From: Eledone cirrhosa
Taxonomy: Eukaryota
NCBI GenBank assembly: GCA_964016885.1
Contig: OZ024749.1
Location: 31,124,001-31,188,000 of the forward strand
Direction: 5' to 3'
DNA length: 64,000 nt
A program made the translations under genes and the position numbers. Numbering within the stretch: position 1 is the first letter of the stretch; the number at the start of each line of letters is the position of its first letter. Shown here piece after piece: positions 8,781 through 47,637 of the stretch. The notes below the pieces were generated by a model. That model was not told the DNA's origin and searched no databases. It saw only the letters and a list, made by a program, of their open reading frames with translations.

Positions 8781-8809
<29 letters not shown>

Positions 8810-8818
<9 letters not shown>

Positions 8819-9212
8819 AAATAATTAAGTCGAATATTTAAAACTTGGCTTCGTTTATTAAAGGTGTACTGCTATATATATTTCGGTGACAGCCATCCTT
8901 GGCTGTGACCTCTTCAGGCAGTCCGAATTGGTGTGGTAGAGACAGGTACATATGTTATTAAAGTGTTTAACTCCGTCGAAACTCCGATATGTCCAGTTTC
9001 TGGTTGGGTTGTTATTTCTCTGAGGAACTGGAATCATATCATATGATTCCAGTACATACACTTTAATAACATGTGTACCTGTCTCTACCACACTAATTCG
9101 GACTGCCTGAAGAGGTCACAGCCAAGGATGGCTGTCACCGATATATATATACCAGTACACCTTTTAATAAACGAAGCCAAATTTTAAATATTTGATTAAT
9201 TATTTTATTTTA
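8810..9212. mobile_element. Fold-back PLE pLTR insert in (TA)n
   Basis: Arms about 8810-8965 and 9057-9212 are inverted copies, each with a hammerhead. Inner palindrome CTGGAATCATATCATATGATTCCAG. Confidence 0.8.
8868..8922 (-). ncRNA. Type I hammerhead ribozyme, intact core
   Basis: ACTGC-CTGAAGA-GGTCACAGCC AAGGAT GGCTGTCACC-GAAA-TATATA-TA-GCAGT. The mirror copy at 9102-9156 has GAAA changed to GATA. Confidence 0.85.
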
Positions 9213-9459
9213 TATATATATATATTTTATATATATATATATTATATATATAAATTGGGTCAAATACTGGTCATAATGATTGCGAAGCGAAATCATTTAA
9301 ACATTCGTCCATGCAGTATCTCACCACCATATATATATATATATATAACCAAAGATTAATATGGTTCATTGATTACTCAATGAATATAGTTTTACAATAG
9401 ATTAAAAGCACTCTACATTTACTGTAGCACTCTGGAGTTATTATTATTCAGAATAATAA

Positions 9460-9646
9460 GGGCGGTGGATTGGCAGTATCGGTAAGGGTTGGACGCCATG
9501 CTTTGAAGCATAGACTTACCTCCCTTTATGATCTGAGTTCAAATCCCGCCGAGGTTAACTTTGCCTTTCATCCTTACAGGGTCGATAAAATAAAGTACCA
9601 GTAATGCACTGGGATATTTGCTGGCCTTGTGCCAAATGTAGAAACA
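9460..9646 (+). mobile_element. Full-length tRNA-derived SINE with 20-bp TSD
   Basis: A-box-like TGGCAGTATCGG and B-box-like GAGTTCAAATCCC. TSD ATTATTATTCAGAATAATAA at 9440-9459 and 9647-9666. Confidence 0.92.
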
Positions 9647-9699
9647 ATTATTATTCAGAATAATAATAAATGAAGGCATTCACATAATCAAAATATATG

Positions 9700-9761
9700 T
9701 TTTATTATATATATTTCGAAGGTACTCTGCTGTTTTTTCAGCACGTCCTCGTCAGATAAAA
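9700..9761 (-). ncRNA. Type I hammerhead ribozyme
   Basis: TTTTAT-CTGACGA-GGACGTGCTG AAAAAA CAGCAGAGTACCTTC-GAAA-TATATA-TA-ATAAAA. Stem II is imperfect. Confidence 0.65.
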
Positions 9762-10030
9762 TACATTACTTGATGTATGACATACCTCAACGGTCTTGAT
9801 AGTTCAATTCCAGTATTGGCAGTGAGTTATATAAATCACTGCCAATACTGGAATTGAACTATGTACCTTCGAAATATATATATAATAAAATATATATTTT
9901 GATTATGTGAATGTCTTCATTTATTTATTATTCTGAATAATAATAGCTCCACAAAACTTGACTGGAGAGTGCTTTTAATCTATTGTAAAACTATATTCAC
10001 TGAGTAATCAATGAACCATATTAATCTTTA

Positions 10031-10114
<84 letters not shown>

Positions 10115-10159
10115 GTGACGAAACATAAGTCAATTGCATGAACTCATAATCCTTTATTT

Positions 10160-10215
10160 ACTGCTATATATATTTCGATGATAGCCATTGAATGGCTATG
10201 ACCTCATCAGGCAGT
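10160..10215 (-). ncRNA. Type I hammerhead ribozyme, intact
   Basis: Reverse complement of the motif at 10323-10378. Confidence 0.88.
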
Positions 10216-10322
10216 TAGTCAGTTCTTAGATATGCCAGCTCTGTGTGTATAGTGTTGATGTCCCAAGGCTCTGATACGATCAACACTATACACACAGAGC
10301 TGGCATATCTAAGAACTGACTA

Positions 10323-10378
10323 ACTGCCTGATGAGGTCATAGCCATTCAATGGCTATCATCGAAATATATATAGCAGT
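10323..10378 (+). ncRNA. Type I hammerhead ribozyme, intact
   Basis: ACTGC-CTGATGA-GGTCATAGCCA TTCAA TGGCTATCATC-GAAA-TATATA-TA-GCAGT, then AAATAAA. Confidence 0.9.
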
Positions 10379-10534
10379 AAATAAATGATTATGAGTTCAT
10401 GCAATTGACTTGTTTCGTCACTATTATAACTCCGGAACTTATATCTTCGCTGAGTGCTCCCTATCCGCATACTGAAGTACTGGATTTTACCAACACTTAC
10501 TTTCTTGCTATATATATATATATATATGGTGGTG

Positions 10535-10810
10535 AGATACTGGATGGACAAATGTTTAAATGATTTCGCTTCGCAATCACTATGACCAGTATTTGACCCA
10601 ACTCCTTAGCGACTTGCATGGCTAATCCAAACCTGTAATTCAAAGGGCCAGGCCTTTCACATATTGCGTCATGCTGAATCTATCTAAGAACTATCCTAAG
10701 GTTACACGTGTCTCTGGAATGATCAACCACTTGCATGTAATTTTCATGGGTAATTTGTTCCATTGATCGAAAATTCGGAACACCCATCGTTGAAAGGGAC
10801 GGAGATCCAT
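10535..10810 (+). mobile_element. Old SINE-like repeat of a second family
   Basis: Degenerate tRNA-like head followed by a body (AAAGGGCCAGGCC...TACACGTGTC...GACGGAG) that I recall as a cephalopod repeat. Unverified. Confidence 0.45.
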
Positions 10811-25084: not shown

Positions 25085-28000
25085 TCATTCTTAAGCCACG
25101 CAATGCTCACATTAAGGAACCACTCATGATAATAACAATTTAAAAAAAAACAACAAAAAGAAAACCCCGTGACCAAGAAATACCGGGATGGCGGCTGGCG
25201 GGGAATAGCCATGTCTCTAGGGGAGAACGACCCCTCTAGTCTTGGTTGACACTCGTTCTAGAAGTGGTAACACGAAATGATTACCCCTTGGTGGATAAGG
25301 ATAAAACGCGACAAAATAAAGTAAATGTCTAATGATAAAATCTCATACCGGATCGGCCGTCACCCGGGTAAAAATGGGCCGCGTCCCTCAGAGAGGAACC
25401 AGACTGGGGTCGAAAAATCAGCTAATGGTTCAAACCTTCCCATCACTTCGGAGCTGGAGACCTCCCATAACCAGAATACTCCTACTGTTGGCCCTCCATG
25501 CTCACCACCAAGAAATCCAAAGAAAAAGAGAGAAAAATGGTCAAGGGAAGATAATAAAGAAGTCCTTGAGGCTTTCTACACTGCCATGTACTACCCATCA
25601 AATACATCGAATACAGAACAAACATATATCAACTGGAAAAAGAAACATCCCGAAAACAGAGGCTATATTGACAGTAACAAACTAGCCAATATACGAAGAA
25701 ATATTGTAAGAAAAAAGTTACTAACTGATATAGAAATTGATCAGATCAAGCTAGTAGCACAAAGTCAGCGAAGGGGAAAATGAAGCATGTGTCAGTGAAA
25801 ACGAGGTAAACTGTAACACTTCGAATCCCAGGGTTGGGGCGGAATCACTGGCAACAGAACAAATTAAAGAAAGGAGCGAAAAAGTGGAGGGAGTGCATGC
25901 TCAGGATGAAACTCCAAATGAAAATAATGAGATCGTAAATGATAAAGAAATGAATGAGAATGAACTTGCCAACTTGAAGGATGAAATTATGATCGAATGG
26001 ATGAAAATGAAAGAATCTGACATGGGGCAACGAGACACCCTCCCTAAGATCCAGAACTCCAAACAGAACCAAAAGATAATACACAAGACTAACATAATTC
26101 TCAAAAACATTATCATCAAAAACAAACTAAACATTACTGACTTAAATCATTTCTATTATGCATCGGTTAAAGTCACCACTCACTTATGTGGAGTGAAGAT
26201 GAAAAAACAAAGGAATTCCCACAAGAAATCTACTTGGCAAGATAACATCAATCGCCAAATAAACCTTCTCCGATCTGACATAGAAATTTTAACAAACTAT
26301 AAAGTAGGTGAACATGTTAAACAAACTAAACTTAGAAAATTGAAAAAAAAGTACAATATAAGATCAATATGTGACATAGATATGCTGATAGAAACAATCA
26401 AGCAAAAAGTGTCGGCCAAAGCTGCTCGTATAAGGCGCTTTGAAAAACGATCTAGATTCTATAAGGACAATAATATGTTCAAAAACAACCAAAGAAACTT
26501 CTACAGAAAAATTGGTAAGTCAACAATAACTGCTAAATCAATACCACCCAAGGAGGAAGTGCAAGAATTCTGGGAAAAGATCTGGGCCGAAGAAAAAGTT
26601 CATAACATACATGCCCCATGGATAGACAGACAAATGAAAGAAACAGCTCACCTTGAAGAACAAACATGGGAAAATATAACAGTTGAACAGCTGCGCTTGG
26701 CTCTAAGAAAAACCAGCAAATGGAAATCCCCAGGAAAAGACAAAATACAAAACTTTTGGATAAATGCCTTCACAGAGTCTCATGAGCTGTTAGCCCAACT
26801 TTACAATGAAATAGTTAAGGAGCCAGAAAAGATACCATCATGGCTAGTAACGGCATTACATTCCTGCTACCGAAGAATGATGAGACAAACAATCCCAAAA
26901 ATTACAGACCGATAACCTGCTTGACCACAATGTATAAAATTTTAACATCAGTCCTAACTGAATACACATATGACCACCTGATAACAAATGACCTATTTCC
27001 CATTGAGCAGAAAGGGTGTAAACGAGGCTCATATGGCTGTAAGGATCAGCTTCTGGTTAACAAAATGATACTGGAAGATTGTCATAATAGACACAAAAAT
27101 CTATCGATTGCTTGGATAGATTATAAAAAAGCATTCGATAGTTTGCCACACAGTTGGATTGAAAAATGTTTAGAGATTTTCAAAGTATCCCCCGTTGTCA
27201 GGAGGTTTTTGTCATTCAGTATGAAGACATGGAAAACGACACTCGTTTTGAATAGTGAAACAAAATCACTGGAAGCTGGAGAAGTTAATATTAAGTGTGG
27301 AATTTTTCAGGGTGACTCTTTATCACCGCTTTTATTCTGCATCGCACTTATACCATTAAGTAAAATGCTCAATGAAACAAAACAAGGATATAGAGTCTAT
27401 GACAAAACCATTAATCACCTGTTCTACATGGATGACCTGAAACTATTTGCAAAAAATGATGAACAATTGCAAGGGCTATTATCCACTGTGAAGCAGTTCA
27501 GTGATGACATTAAAATGGAGTTCGGACTGGATAAATGCGCCAAAGCAACGTTCACCAGAGGAAAGCTGCTGAAGAGTTCAGACATTAATCTTGATCGGGG
27601 GAACGTAATAAGAGAGCTTGATCAAGAAAAAACTTACAAATATCTAGGTGTTTGTGAAGGAGACGGAATCAAGCACTCGACAATGAGGGAAAGGATAAGG
27701 AAGGAATGTTACCGCAGAGTGAGAGCAATCTTAAGAACGGAATTGAATGCAAGGAATAGGATCGATGCCATAAACACGCTTGCCATACCAGTAGTAACCT
27801 ACAGTTACAATGTCATCAACTGGTCAAGCACAGAGATCCGTAGGCTCGATACAAAAATCCGAAAATTCTTAACCATGCACAGAATGCATCACCCTAAGGC
27901 AGACATAGATAGAATATATCTCCCTAGGAAAGAAGGAGGACGTGGGTTAATCCAGTTAGACATTGCGTTGAAAACTGCAACAATTGGATTATCCACATAT

Positions 28001-29115
28001 CTAAGGGAATCACATGATTGGATGATCAAACTCGTTTTGAAACACGAAAGCACCAAAAGATCATATTCCATTACAAAAGATGCACAAAGATACAGTAATG
28101 GACTACAACTTTCAGAAGTCCCATTTACTGCTGAAATGGAAAACACAGAAAAAGCAAAGCAGGTAAAAGTAACTGCAAAGAAAGAACTGCTACAGAAACT
28201 GGCTAAGAAATGGCAAGAAAAGCCTCTGTATGGAAAATACCCAGAGCGAGCTAACAATCCTGATGTTGACAAAACTTTAACCCATCAGTGGTTGGCATCC
28301 TCTGGACTGAAATCGGAGACTGAAGGACTGATTATATCGGCACAAGATCAGTGTCTGCCAACAAAAAATTACCAAGCCAACATAATAAAAAATGGGTGCA
28401 GCCCATTATGCTGTGTATGCAAAAAACAACCAGAGACCATTGACCATATAATTTCAATGTGCAGTCCTATAGCTCCAACCGAATACCTAAACAGGCATGA
28501 CAAAGCTGCACAATACATACATTGGATAATGTGTAAGCATTTTGACCTGCCCCATCAAAAGAATTGGTGGGAGCATCAACCACCTCCCATACTTGAAAAA
28601 GATCACATCTCAATCTTGTGGAACTTTAGCATCCAAACAGACCGAAAAATAGATGCAAATAGACCTGATATAATATTGAAGGACTTTCAAAGGAGGGTAT
28701 GCCTGCTAATTGATATGTCTATTCGAATAGACAAGAATGTATCTATAAAAAAATTTGAAAAATTGAGCAAGTATAAGGACCTGGAGATAGAAATTGGAAA
28801 AATGTGGAAATTGAGAACTAAAACAATACCAGTGGTTGTAGGCGCTCTGGGAATCATACCTAAGGGGTCTAACGACTACTTATCGCAAATCCCAGGAAAC
28901 CCGCGTATAGGAGAAATACAAAAGATAGTACTAATGGGAACTGCCCATATACTAAGGAAGATCCTGTCAATATAAGTACATCACAAGTCTAAACACTAAG
29001 GATGCATGTGTGAATTTGTATGTTCTTTCTTGAACATGGCGGACCTTGTTGTCTCTTGAGGTCACTGGTTGTGACTTGGTGATAACTCGTATAAACATAA
29101 AGCAAGATAAATGCA

Positions 29116-29623: not shown

Positions 29624-29960
29624 GAAGTTCTATTTAAATTGTTGGGATACAACAAGCAAATATTTTTATAACTGATATAAAGCACTCGACAAATAATTGG
29701 AGTAAAAATACGATATTAACAAATGGAGACTATATTTATAAAACCATATTCATTGTTGGAAGGTCCCGTTTAGTCACTATCCGGGAGCTTCCAACAGTAA
29801 TGGTCGCATTCTTTAAGGGTATGGCAATATTTATTTCTAAAACTGCTCTATATTATATTTTATCTGATGAAAGCACACCAAAATTTCACTTGGTGTCCTT
29901 GAAATATGTATAATGAAATAAATATGGTTTTATAAATATAGTTTCCATTTGTTAATATCC
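29624..29960. mobile_element. Fold-back PLE pLTR insert, family L copy 1; hammerhead 29857-29919 (+)
   Basis: ATTTTAT-CTGATGA-AAGCACACCA...TGGTGTCCTT-GAAA-TATGTA-TA-ATGAAAT. Short inverted arm plus tail on the left. (TA)n flanks. Confidence 0.8.
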
Positions 29961-29983
29961 TATATATATATATATATATATAT

Positions 29984-30345
29984 AAAGAAAAAGAGATGAA
30001 ATCGAAAATGCAACTGAAGTCTTATTTTTTTAAAAAATATATATATTTATTTGGTTCCTTTACCGGTTTCGCAGTTCTTCTGCTTTGCAAAAGGTGAGTT
30101 GAGATGGAGGGTCTGTGGTTTTTCTCACATCAGATGTGAGAAAAACCACAGACCCTCCATCTCAACTCACCTTTTGAAAAGCAGAAGAACTGCGAAACCG
30201 GTAAAGGAACCAAATAAATATATATATTTTTTTTAAAAATAAGACTTCAGTTGCATTTTCGATTTCATCTCTTTTTCTTTATACTTCCACTAGTGTAGGA
30301 CACCTCGGTTATTTTTCATTTTGTAAAAAAAACCTCACTTTCTAA
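29984..30345. mobile_element. ~300-bp near-perfect palindrome (centre 30132) plus one-sided tail; degenerate hammerheads
   Basis: 29984-30131 mirrors 30133-30280. CCTT-TTGAAAA-GCAG AAGAA CTGC-GAAA-CCGG-TA-AAGG...AATAAA. Confidence 0.8.
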
Positions 30346-33943: not shown

Positions 33944-34822
33944 TTGTGTGTGTGTGTATGTGTGTGTGTATATGTGTGTGTGTGAGTTATCAAATTAACA
34001 ATGAAAATAAAAAGAACAAAGTCAAGTTACTTTATAACTTTGTTTTATTTTGTTCTTTTTATTTTCATTGTTAATTCAATACCTAATATCTGACTCTGTA
34101 TCTAAAGAATTAATTCAGCGAAACACAGAACTTCTCTATGGATTTCACAAGTTTACATTGAGTTCTATCCAGAGGTAGACCAGACTGAAAAAATAAAAAA
34201 AATATATATATGTGTCTGTGTGTGTATAATATATATATATATATAAATCTACATACATACATATATATATATACATACATTTACCTATGTATATAGCTAT
34301 GCATTTATACATTTGTATATATACATGCATTTATATTTAAGTGCGTAAGGATGTTGACATGATTTATTTTTTGGGGGGTAAGGAGAGAATTTTGACTCCA
34401 GATTTTATTACCTAGGGAGATTAAATACCACAGCTCGGGCTGAAACTTACCAGGTCCTCAACCTCATCAAACACCAACGCCGGCCTGTGTGTGTATATAT
34501 GTATGTTTATGTATGTATGTTATCTCTTTCTCTTAATTTCGAGTATATTTTATTTGACCGGCCACCTTCCTGGTGGCAAGGTTGTAAAAGAAAAGAAATT
34601 GTCATACCTTGAATCGCAAGAATGTTTTGCAAATTTTGAAGGTGCCAGCTATCGCAGCCATGTGTAGACTATGAATTAGGGAGCTGCGCTTTTTGTCCGC
34701 AAATCCAAGTTGAGCCATACTTTTGTTCCAAGCGGGTTGGTATATAACGCGTAGCTCCAATTGTATGTATGTATGTATGTATGTATGTATGTATGTATGT
34801 ATGTATGTATGTATGTATGTAC

Positions 34823-35508
34823 ATGGAAAGCTCTATGTGTGACAGTATAGAAGCTCTTGTGCTTAAGCAGCGACTCCGTTGGAGTGGTCACCTTGCCAGG
34901 ATGAAGGATTCTAGAATACCAAAACAACTCTTCTATGGAGAGTTGGTTAAAGGAAAACGACCGCCACATAAACCAAAAAAGAGGTATAAGGATTCCTTGA
35001 AGGCCTCTCTGAAAGACGCTAACATCTCTGCTGATACATGGGAAAATATTGCTGCTGATCGTAATAAATGGAGAAAGACTGTATATGAGGGAAAAGTTGC
35101 CTTTGAGGCATCTCGAATCGCACACGAGAAAGTAAAGCGGGACGTGAGGAAGGGTATTGCTGTTGCACTTCCAGACGGCGAGGGTCCTCCTATGTTTCTG
35201 ACATGCAGCGTCTGTGCGAGACTCTGCCTAAGCAAAGCTGGACTCGAAAGTCATCTTCGCAGTCATAAAGTAAGACCAGTGGTTGACTACCAGGCTGCTG
35301 TTGGAGATGCTACTCATCATGCTTGCCAAACATGTGGTAGAGAATGTAAATCAGCAGGAGGACTCAAGCGACATGCAAAAGTACACGAACTCCAACCACA
35401 GCCGACTATTCCCAGTAAATGTTTTGGTTGCCGACTCTGTGCAAGACATTTTGGATCATTGGCTGGGCTAAAAAGCCACATTCGATTGCAGCACTGTTAG
35501 TTGCTATC

Positions 35509-42807: not shown

Positions 42808-43185
42808 AAAGTTCTATTTAAATTGTTGGGATACAAGCAAATATTTTTAGAACTGATCTAAAGCACTCAACAAGTATTTGGAGTAAACATACGATATTAA
42901 CAAATGGAAACTATATTTATAAAACCATATTTATTTCATTATACATATTTCAAGGACACCAAGTTAAATTATGGTGTGCTTTCATCAGACAAAACATAGG
43001 ACTATCCGGGAGCTTCCAACAGTAATGGTTGCATTTTTTAAGGGTATGTCAATATTTATTTATAAAACTGATCTATATTATATTTTGTCTGATGAAAGCA
43101 CACCATAATTTAACTTGGTGTCCTTGAAATATGTATAATGAAATAAATATGGTTATCTAAATATAGTTTCCATTTGTTAATATCG
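42805..43185. mobile_element. Fold-back PLE pLTR insert, family L copy 2; hammerheads 42933-42994 (-) and 43082-43144 (+)
   Basis: Inverted arms each carry CTGATGA...GAAA-TATGTA-TA. Tail on the left. Confidence 0.82.
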
Positions 43186-43217
43186 TGTATATATATATAT
43201 ATATTATATATATATAT

Positions 43218-47150: not shown

Positions 47151-47578
47151 AAGAGTTCTATTTAAATTGTTGGGATTCAACGAGCAAATATTTTTATAAC
47201 TGATATAAAGCACTGAACAAATATTTGGAGTAAAAATACGATATCAACAAATGGAAACTATATTTATAAAACCATATTTATTTCATTATACATATTTCAA
47301 GGACACCAAGTTAAATTATGGTGTGCTTTCATCAGATAAAATATAATATAGATCAGTTTTATAAATAAATATTGACATACCCTTAAAGAATGCAACCATC
47401 CGGGAGCTTCAAACAGTAATGGTTGCATTCTTTAACGGTATGTCAATATTTATTTATAAAACTGATCTATATTATATTTTATCTGATGAAAGCACACCAT
47501 AATTTAACTTGGTGTCCTTGAAATATGTATAATGAAATAAATATGGTTTTATAAATATAGTTTCCATTTGTTAATATC

Positions 47579-47580
<2 letters not shown>
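47151..47580. mobile_element. Fold-back PLE pLTR insert, family L copy 3; hammerheads 47280-47342 (-) and 47476-47538 (+)
   Basis: About 160-bp near-perfect arms 47238-47399 and 47419-47580. Tail 47151-47237. Confidence 0.85.

Positions 47581-47637
<57 letters not shown>

What the first reader, a model, noticed from the sequence alone, without database searches (positions are those of the whole stretch)
10113..10509. Youngest example: two intact hammerheads on opposite strands in one hairpin
Seen: arms of about 146 bp differing at only a few positions, and both ribozyme cores are perfect. Inference: transcription in either direction yields one sense ribozyme, always in the downstream arm. The upstream antisense arm could sequester it in a long duplex, giving a dsRNA substrate for Dicer or ADAR instead of cleavage.
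Basis: partly seen in the sequence, partly recalled or inferred. Interest (0 to 1): 0.75.

Follow-up and report, generated by a model that had tools for sequence, protein, structure and literature searches.

The report
Mirror-image Penelope retrotransposon remnant
This hairpin is a short, back-to-back leftover of a known kind of jumping gene (a Penelope-like element) whose end repeat carries a hammerhead ribozyme motif; the layout is already described and common in this genome, and it is likely a by-product of insertion rather than a regulatory switch.

Summary
In detail: arms 10114-10259 and 10279-10424 match at 143 of 146 columns, and each has an intact minimal type I hammerhead core pointing away from the centre. 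It is one insertion of a repeat family with at least 3,243 exact tail-less ends. Longer copies frame an RT + GIY-YIG ORF with Hydra-clade Penelope-like motifs. The layout (inverted truncated pLTR, tail on one end, (TA)n target, hammerheads on opposite strands) is in print (PMC4209133, PMC3846280, PMC8557442), and this scan found it before on other DNA of this genome. A transcript is predicted to fold as one duplex that blocks the ribozyme (88 kcal/mol), but nothing shows function: cores decay like their flanks, there is no A-to-G excess, and 'youngest' is not established. The useful by-product is mechanistic: inverted partners accompany 26 of 38 tailed copies but 0 of 34 tail-less ones, paired arms share variants, and 5' ends pile up at one site upstream of the uncut ribozyme. 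This fits priming from both ends of a break at two fixed RNA sites (inferred).

The parts
10035..10113 (.). Left part of the (TA)n target site
   Evidence: Sequence; the unfilled twin of this site lies in the other arm of an older hairpin, 9255-9420
10114..10260 (-). Inverted, 5'-truncated pLTR arm without tail; ends at the family's main 3' end
   Evidence: 3,243 exact genome matches to this end joined to (TA)n
10160..10215 (-). Minimal type I hammerhead motif, left arm (CTGATGA at 10210; predicted cut between 10165 and 10164)
   Evidence: Descriptor scan, alignment
10258..10260 (.). Inversion junction: 3-nt microhomology (ATG/CAT) shared by both arms
   Evidence: the exact junction 20-mer occurs at 2 places in the genome, and with variants at 5 of 49 loci examined
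10258..10278 (+). 5' start of the forward arm (hairpin loop); begins at the family's 5'-end hotspot, the inferred RNA start
10279..10424 (+). Forward pLTR arm
10323..10378 (+). Minimal type I hammerhead motif, right arm (CTGATGA at 10328; predicted cut after 10373)
10425..10509 (+). One-sided 'tail' of 81-85 nt: the first bases of the element body, which in full-length copies run on into the ORF
   Evidence: 220 exact genome matches to the pLTR-tail joint
10510..10527 (.). Right part of the (TA)n target site

Best explanation
This is a single, short insertion of a Penelope-like retrotransposon, two hammerhead-bearing end repeats joined head to head inside a (TA)n run, and it likely arose when both ends of the cut target primed reverse transcription on the element's uncut RNA. 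Shown: the family, its ORF, the (TA)n target, the two fixed outer ends (one without, one with the 81-85-nt tail) and the 3-nt junction. Inferred: the element's endonuclease cuts both strands of (TA)n; one end primes at the pLTR end and the other at the tail end; both cDNAs run through the intact hammerhead towards the RNA's 5' end (about window 10257) and are joined by microhomology. The ribozyme belongs to the parent element and would need a partner in the same orientation (dimer) or protein help; here it is a passenger. If a host transcript crosses the locus it would form about 145 bp of dsRNA, but that is incidental.
For: Family: 1,283 first-look candidates, the 40 scored all 97-100% identical. 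4 of 8 long loci fetched hold pLTR-ORF-pLTR with RT and GIY-YIG motifs that align with 14 homologues and meet the Hydra-clade motifs. Empty-site control: the twin arm of the older host hairpin shows an uninterrupted (TA)n between the same flanks. Tail rule: inverted partner in 26 of 38 tailed against 0 of 34 tail-less loci taken in order along contig C1, Fisher p = 1.7e-10 (2 and 6 loci set aside because the element ran off the fetched DNA). 29 of 31 pairs are tail + tail-less, 2 tail + tail, 0 tail-less + tail-less. Arms of a pair share 14 derived variants against 2.4 +/- 1.5 for random partners, 0 of 1,000 shuffles. Either arm may be the longer at the centre (11 against 10, 8 equal). 5' ends fall in a 9-nt window upstream of the ribozyme in 12 of 39 tail-less arms and 13 of 65 arms of tailed loci; 595 exact (TA)n-joined starts there against 26 at the ribozyme cut site. 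In vitro, a Poseidon PLE cuts and extends both strands, starts at two internal sites that bound the tail, and uses uncleaved RNA (PMC11167929).
Against: Shared variants are also expected from fold-back copying or early arm-to-arm conversion, so they do not single out two-ended priming. Three pairs disagree at subfamily-type columns (L004, L026, L109), which a single template does not explain without new mutation. Two hairpins found with a tail-free query show no tail because their second arm stops early (L053, L055); they were left out of the 31 pairs. 12 of 38 tailed loci have no inverted partner. Tail-less loci were fetched with 1.5 kb upstream, tailed ones with 2.5 kb. The RNA start is inferred from DNA only. 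Pfam did not recognise the family's own ORF pieces (0 of 4) and gave one sub-threshold GIY-YIG hit among 9 homologues, so the protein call rests on motifs.
Confidence: 0.8

Rival explanations
1. Same element, other route: one cDNA (or an antisense RNA) folds back on itself at the 3-nt microhomology and is copied into the second arm (self-priming), and the second end is trimmed at the pLTR end.
For: Proposed for head-to-head Penelope copies in PMC3846280 (passage). Predicts shared variants and junction overlaps (17 of 29 pairs overlap by 1-19 nt).
Against: Either arm can carry the centre loop (11 against 10); both outer ends match the two fixed ends also seen on single copies; three pairs disagree at diagnostic columns.
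Confidence: 0.2
2. One reading: the hairpin is a functional switch that trades ribozyme cleavage for dsRNA processing by Dicer or ADAR, for example to silence the family.
For: A transcript would form a near-perfect 145-bp duplex. Penelope copies yield small RNAs in a rotifer and in Drosophila (passage of PMC3846280). An earlier scan note reports A-to-G-rich hairpins of another family in this genome (unchecked).
Against: Cores change at 24 of 1,500 sites (1.6%) against 247 of 13,194 (1.9%) in flanks; 128 of 150 arms still have intact cores, so two intact cores are the expectation for a young family. A>G 36 and T>C 40 of 451 substitutions, below G>A 69 and C>T 66; none of the 25 most diverged of 180 arms has more than 2 of either (arms under 88% identity were filtered out). 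Arms accumulate private changes (140), so duplexes are not being maintained.
Confidence: 0.07
3. The hairpin is itself a mobile unit (a MITE-like or retrozyme-like element amplified as a palindrome).
For: The same junction recurs at 5 of 49 loci.
Against: Only 2 exact junction matches in 3.0 Gb; among the 5 loci the tail sits on different arms (L001 against L041); most pairs have their own junction; no tandem same-strand hammerhead units here.
Confidence: 0.03

Closest known systems
Hydra-clade endonuclease-bearing Penelope-like elements (PMC8557442; e.g. Penelope-13_HM, Hydra-1_Obim)
   Same: RW(K/R), DKT, CxCX5C linker, no CCHH, CxxC and CxH around the last E and N, C-terminal GIY-YIG, (TA)n target, hammerhead in the pLTR. 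Penelope-13_HM is listed with a 5'-truncated inverted copy and a hammerhead on each strand (supplement).
   Different: A different family from Hydra-1_Obim (the listed hammerhead sequence differs). Monomer about 4.0 kb with a long repeat-rich 3' UTR, against 'generally <3 kb'. Tail 81-85 nt against the 30-40 bp given for PLEs. RWR in place of RWK in the copies read.
Minimal type I hammerheads of metazoan PLE pLTRs (PMC4209133)
   Same: Short helix I (5 bp), long helix II, G10.1-C11.1 pair, palindromic helix III stub; 'dual min-HHRs ... ~100-700 bp but in opposite strands' reported in Schistosoma mansoni.
   Different: [quoted passage not shown]
Poseidon_Ac (PAc) internal initiation and tail (PMC11167929)
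   Same: Two fixed 3' ends that bound a tail lying just past the pLTR; AT-rich target; hammerhead inside the copied stretch.
   Different: Other clade; the paper parts I read do not link the tail to inverted pairs or describe a 5'-end hotspot. Here the tail ends before the first ATG of the ORF.
Metazoan non-LTR retrozymes (PMC7229834, search listing; bioRxiv 10.64898/2026.07.22.740005, first part)
   Same: Type I hammerhead, PLE-related.
   Different: Retrozymes are tandem same-strand units; this locus has two units on opposite strands and derives straight from an ORF-bearing element.

Membership tests
EN+ Penelope-like element | Single ORF with RT and C-terminal GIY-YIG endonuclease between pLTRs (in the parent family) | tested here: met
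   4 of 8 long loci; RT motifs and VVY...YIG align with 14 homologues. All copies read are frameshifted; Pfam hits absent or sub-threshold.
EN+ Penelope-like element | pLTRs from partial tandems; inverted 5'-truncated copy; tail at one end | tested here: met
   against the description in PMC8557442 and PMC3846280.
Hydra clade | RWK motif, DKT in place of DKG, CxCX5C linker | tested here: met
   RMRWRA (RWR variant), HADKTNN, CNCRDPSLC in L031-L034.
Hydra clade | No CCHH finger; CxxC and CxH flanking the last E and N | tested here: met
   One Cys only between VVY and YIG; CNLCLSE...LLN...CRH.
Hydra clade | Insertion into (TA)n and hammerhead in the pLTR | tested here: met
Hydra clade | RT phylogeny grouping with named Hydra families | not tested
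   No named Hydra protein was available as a tool sequence; the assignment is by motifs.
Minimal type I hammerhead ribozyme | Conserved core, helices I and II, NUH triplet, palindromic helix III stub | tested here: met
   a related family at 8.9-9.2 kb keeps stem II through a two-sided change (T-A to C-G).
Minimal type I hammerhead ribozyme | Self-cleavage as monomer or dimer | not testable with these tools
   Needs a cleavage assay.
Non-LTR retrozyme | Two or more tandem same-strand units each with a hammerhead | tested here: not met
   One unit per strand at this locus.
Functional hairpin-RNA (endo-siRNA or ADAR substrate) locus | Transcription and processing of the duplex | not testable with these tools
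   Only the fold is predicted.

The most novel reading that the evidence does not exclude
These hairpins are fossils of a two-ended copying step unique to Penelope-like elements: both ends of a cut (TA)n prime on the same uncleaved element RNA, one at the pLTR end and one 81 nt further on, and both cDNAs stop at the RNA's start just upstream of the hammerhead. The tail then marks the second priming event, and the hammerhead makes neither end of the template.
Probability: 0.5. Interest if true: 0.5.

Novelty: new member of a known kind. Interest (0 to 1): 0.22.

Why it matters
As a locus it matters little: a passenger ribozyme pair in a decaying insertion. As a family it gives counts for an open question, how Penelope-like elements (the sister group of telomerase RT) make inverted repeats and one-sided tails: the tail is tied to the inverted partner, paired arms come from like templates, and template ends do not sit at the ribozyme cut. 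These are directly testable in the published in vitro system. The same reading was reached earlier in this scan on other DNA.

Tried and rejected
Rfam: no family at gathering score in the window; the E-value scan of 10090-10530 gave only sub-threshold miRNA-precursor hits caused by the long stem and no hammerhead model; rejected as uninformative. Expression: no RNA holder listed among 6 runs; four runs of unknown type laid as contigs show the family and both fixed boundaries (loose ends at 10258 and 10424) but no piece spans the locus. Pfam on 4 ORF pieces: 0 real hits; PDB sequence search: none under E = 0.35; the protein atlas gave no answer. Host gene: Pfam on the 150 longest of 218 open frames in the window found a LINE RT (26819-28972), a zf-RVT piece and a C2H2 zinc-finger frame (34748-35497), nothing beside the hairpin, so whether it lies in an intron is unknown. 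Ribozyme-defined ends: of the first 100 of 3,569 places listed, 96 run on through the cut site, 3 continue in TA; 26 (TA)n-joined starts at the cut site, which TA likeness alone could give; rejected as a main route. ADAR traces in the family: not found. Hairpin as its own mobile unit: rejected. Classical L1 twin priming (recalled model, arms non-overlapping): rejected because both arms cover the same sequence. Scan notes near this place: none.

Full report
Observation. The hairpin is real. Arms 10114-10259 and 10279-10424 match at 143 of 146 columns, with one mismatch and one 2-nt gap, around a 19-nt loop; the fold is far beyond shuffles (z = -32). Each arm holds the same minimal type I hammerhead motif, pointing outward: ACTGC, CTGATGA, an 11-pair stem II, GAAA, the palindrome ATATATAT, the triplet AUA and GCAGT. 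Rfam has no model that scores it. The label 'youngest' is not established: the hairpin at 47236-47582 has arms 98.8% alike against 97.9% here, and the right arm of this one already has three private changes from the family majority.

What it is. The right arm plus the 85 bases after it (10279-10509) is a repeat unit: 1,283 first-look candidates, and all 40 scored are 97-100% identical. [quoted passage not shown] In these the upstream unit runs on through 10425-10509 into the ORF, and the downstream unit stops at the position of 10424 and meets (TA)n. So the arm is a pLTR, and 10425-10509 is the start of the element body, the 'tail'. The ORF aligns with 14 of 15 homologues found (E 4e-74 to 7e-38; one short one left out) and carries the motifs given for the Hydra clade: RW(K/R), DKT, CxCX5C, no CCHH, CxxC and CxH, with (TA)n targets (PMC8557442 section 11). 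Pfam did not confirm the domains, and no tree was built. The host is probably an octopus (from an earlier scan note, and a SINE I recall as cephalopod; not tested).

Target site. The insertion sits in the (TA)n of one arm of an older hairpin (9255-9459 against 9925-10601). The other arm keeps the empty site, with the same flanks either side of an unbroken TA run. This fixes the insertion as 10114-10509 with no loss of flank.

Already in print. PMC4209133 (parts 1-2 of 4 read) reports minimal hammerheads in PLE pLTRs, including pairs 100-700 bp apart on opposite strands, no cleavage of a monomer and low cleavage of dimers. PMC3846280 (passages) and PMC8557442 (passages, section 11, supplement part 2 of 59) describe the inverted truncated pLTR and one-sided tail; Penelope-13_HM is listed with a hammerhead on each strand, and an octopus Hydra family with another hammerhead is listed. 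PMC11167929 (parts 1-2 of 4) shows cutting and extension of both strands, two internal RT starts that bound the tail, no need for ribozyme cleavage, and a hammerhead that cuts only with protein. bioRxiv 10.64898/2026.07.22.740005 was read in part 1 of 5; its supplements were not consulted. Five paper searches showed no listing that counts the tail-to-inversion link, but only the papers above were opened.

How it most likely arose. Exact 20-mer counts give 3,243 tail-less ends and 220 pLTR-tail joints. In 40 + 40 loci taken in order along contig C1, an inverted partner lies upstream of 26 of 38 tailed and 0 of 34 tail-less copies (2 and 6 set aside; upstream DNA fetched 2.5 and 1.5 kb). Across all loci (19 duplicates dropped), 31 pairs have both arms reaching the pLTR end: 29 tail + tail-less (in two the tail is split off by a later insertion), 2 tail + tail, 0 tail-less + tail-less. 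Most of these were found through the tail; of 9 hairpins found with a tail-free query, 7 have a whole or partial tail and 2 have a second arm that stops early. Paired arms share 14 derived variants against 2.4 expected (0 of 1,000 shuffles), and have 140 private ones; at the commonest subfamily column 18 of 19 pairs agree, but three pairs disagree at one of two such columns. 5' ends cluster 17-25 nt upstream of position 10279: 12 of 39 tail-less arms, 13 of 65 arms in tailed loci, 595 exact (TA)n-joined cases, and also at inversion junctions where TA likeness cannot help. The cut site has 26 such cases. I infer that the RNA starts near window 10257 (a CA step, like an initiator; motif recalled), that RT starts internally at the pLTR end or the tail end, that both ends of the broken target can prime, and that the two cDNAs are joined by microhomology, here ATG/CAT at 10258-10260. 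Fold-back self-priming remains a live rival.

A transcript in either direction is predicted to zip into the duplex before the sense ribozyme folds (88 kcal/mol gap; stem II probability about 1e-17). But there is little to suppress: the monomer lacks a stable helix III, and opposite-strand cores cannot pair in cis. Intact cores are expected from youth (128 of 150 arms), cores change as fast as flanks (1.6% against 1.9%), and the family shows no A-to-G excess among 451 substitutions in 180 arms of at least 88% identity. Selection on the fold is seen only between element families (two-sided change in stem II), which points to a role in the parent element. Transcription of the locus is untested.

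Verdict. A real but ordinary object: a new family member of a known kind, in a published layout that this scan has already met on other DNA of this genome (383 of 495 notes fit the look-up words). The counts on tail, pairing and 5' ends are a modest, testable addition on mechanism. Interest 0.22.

Noticed in passing
window 8787-9240: Older head-to-head hammerhead pair of a related family (arms 88% alike); the left core at -8917 is intact, the right one at +9107 is mutated; stem II shows a two-sided change against the 10.3-kb family.
   Followed up: partly
window 9255-9459, 9647-9760 and 9858-10601: Older hairpin that hosts the insertion; it has its own hammerhead-like motif at -9755, a tRNA-SINE-like insert at about 9460-9646 in one arm and a 64-bp palindrome at 9799-9862.
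   Followed up: partly
window 42891-43186, 47236-47582, 29864, 44288: A third hammerhead family (CTGATGA aagcacacc...GAAA tatgta TA) in two more head-to-head hairpins, arms 97.2% and 98.8% alike, and single copies; stem II closes A-U, not G-C.
   Followed up: partly
window 29981-30283: 303-bp near-perfect palindrome without a loop (97.7%) just downstream of a hammerhead motif at 29864; no hammerhead inside by my descriptor.
   Followed up: no
window 60970: Isolated compact hammerhead-like motif (CTGAAGA, short stem II, GAAA gaac TA), unlike the other families.
   Followed up: no
window 34748-35497 (+); 25758-28972 (+): C2H2 zinc-finger reading frame of 250 aa, and a LINE with a 718-aa RT frame.
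   Followed up: no
L024:1746-2550: Five tandem 135-nt hammerhead-bearing repeats of this family between a tailed arm and an inverted tail-less arm; looks like a retrozyme-type array derived from the pLTR, as rolling copying of a small circle would give.
   Followed up: no
G000 genome-wide; e.g. L057, L058, L060, L095: Hundreds of about 170-bp solo units with one fixed 5' start, flanked by (TA)n on both sides (595 exact starts); a SINE-like population that is likely short run-off cDNA.
   Followed up: partly
L119:477-511, L128:2424-2442: Two hairpins fold back exactly in the ribozyme's stem II palindrome, and L116 at the predicted cut site.
   Followed up: no
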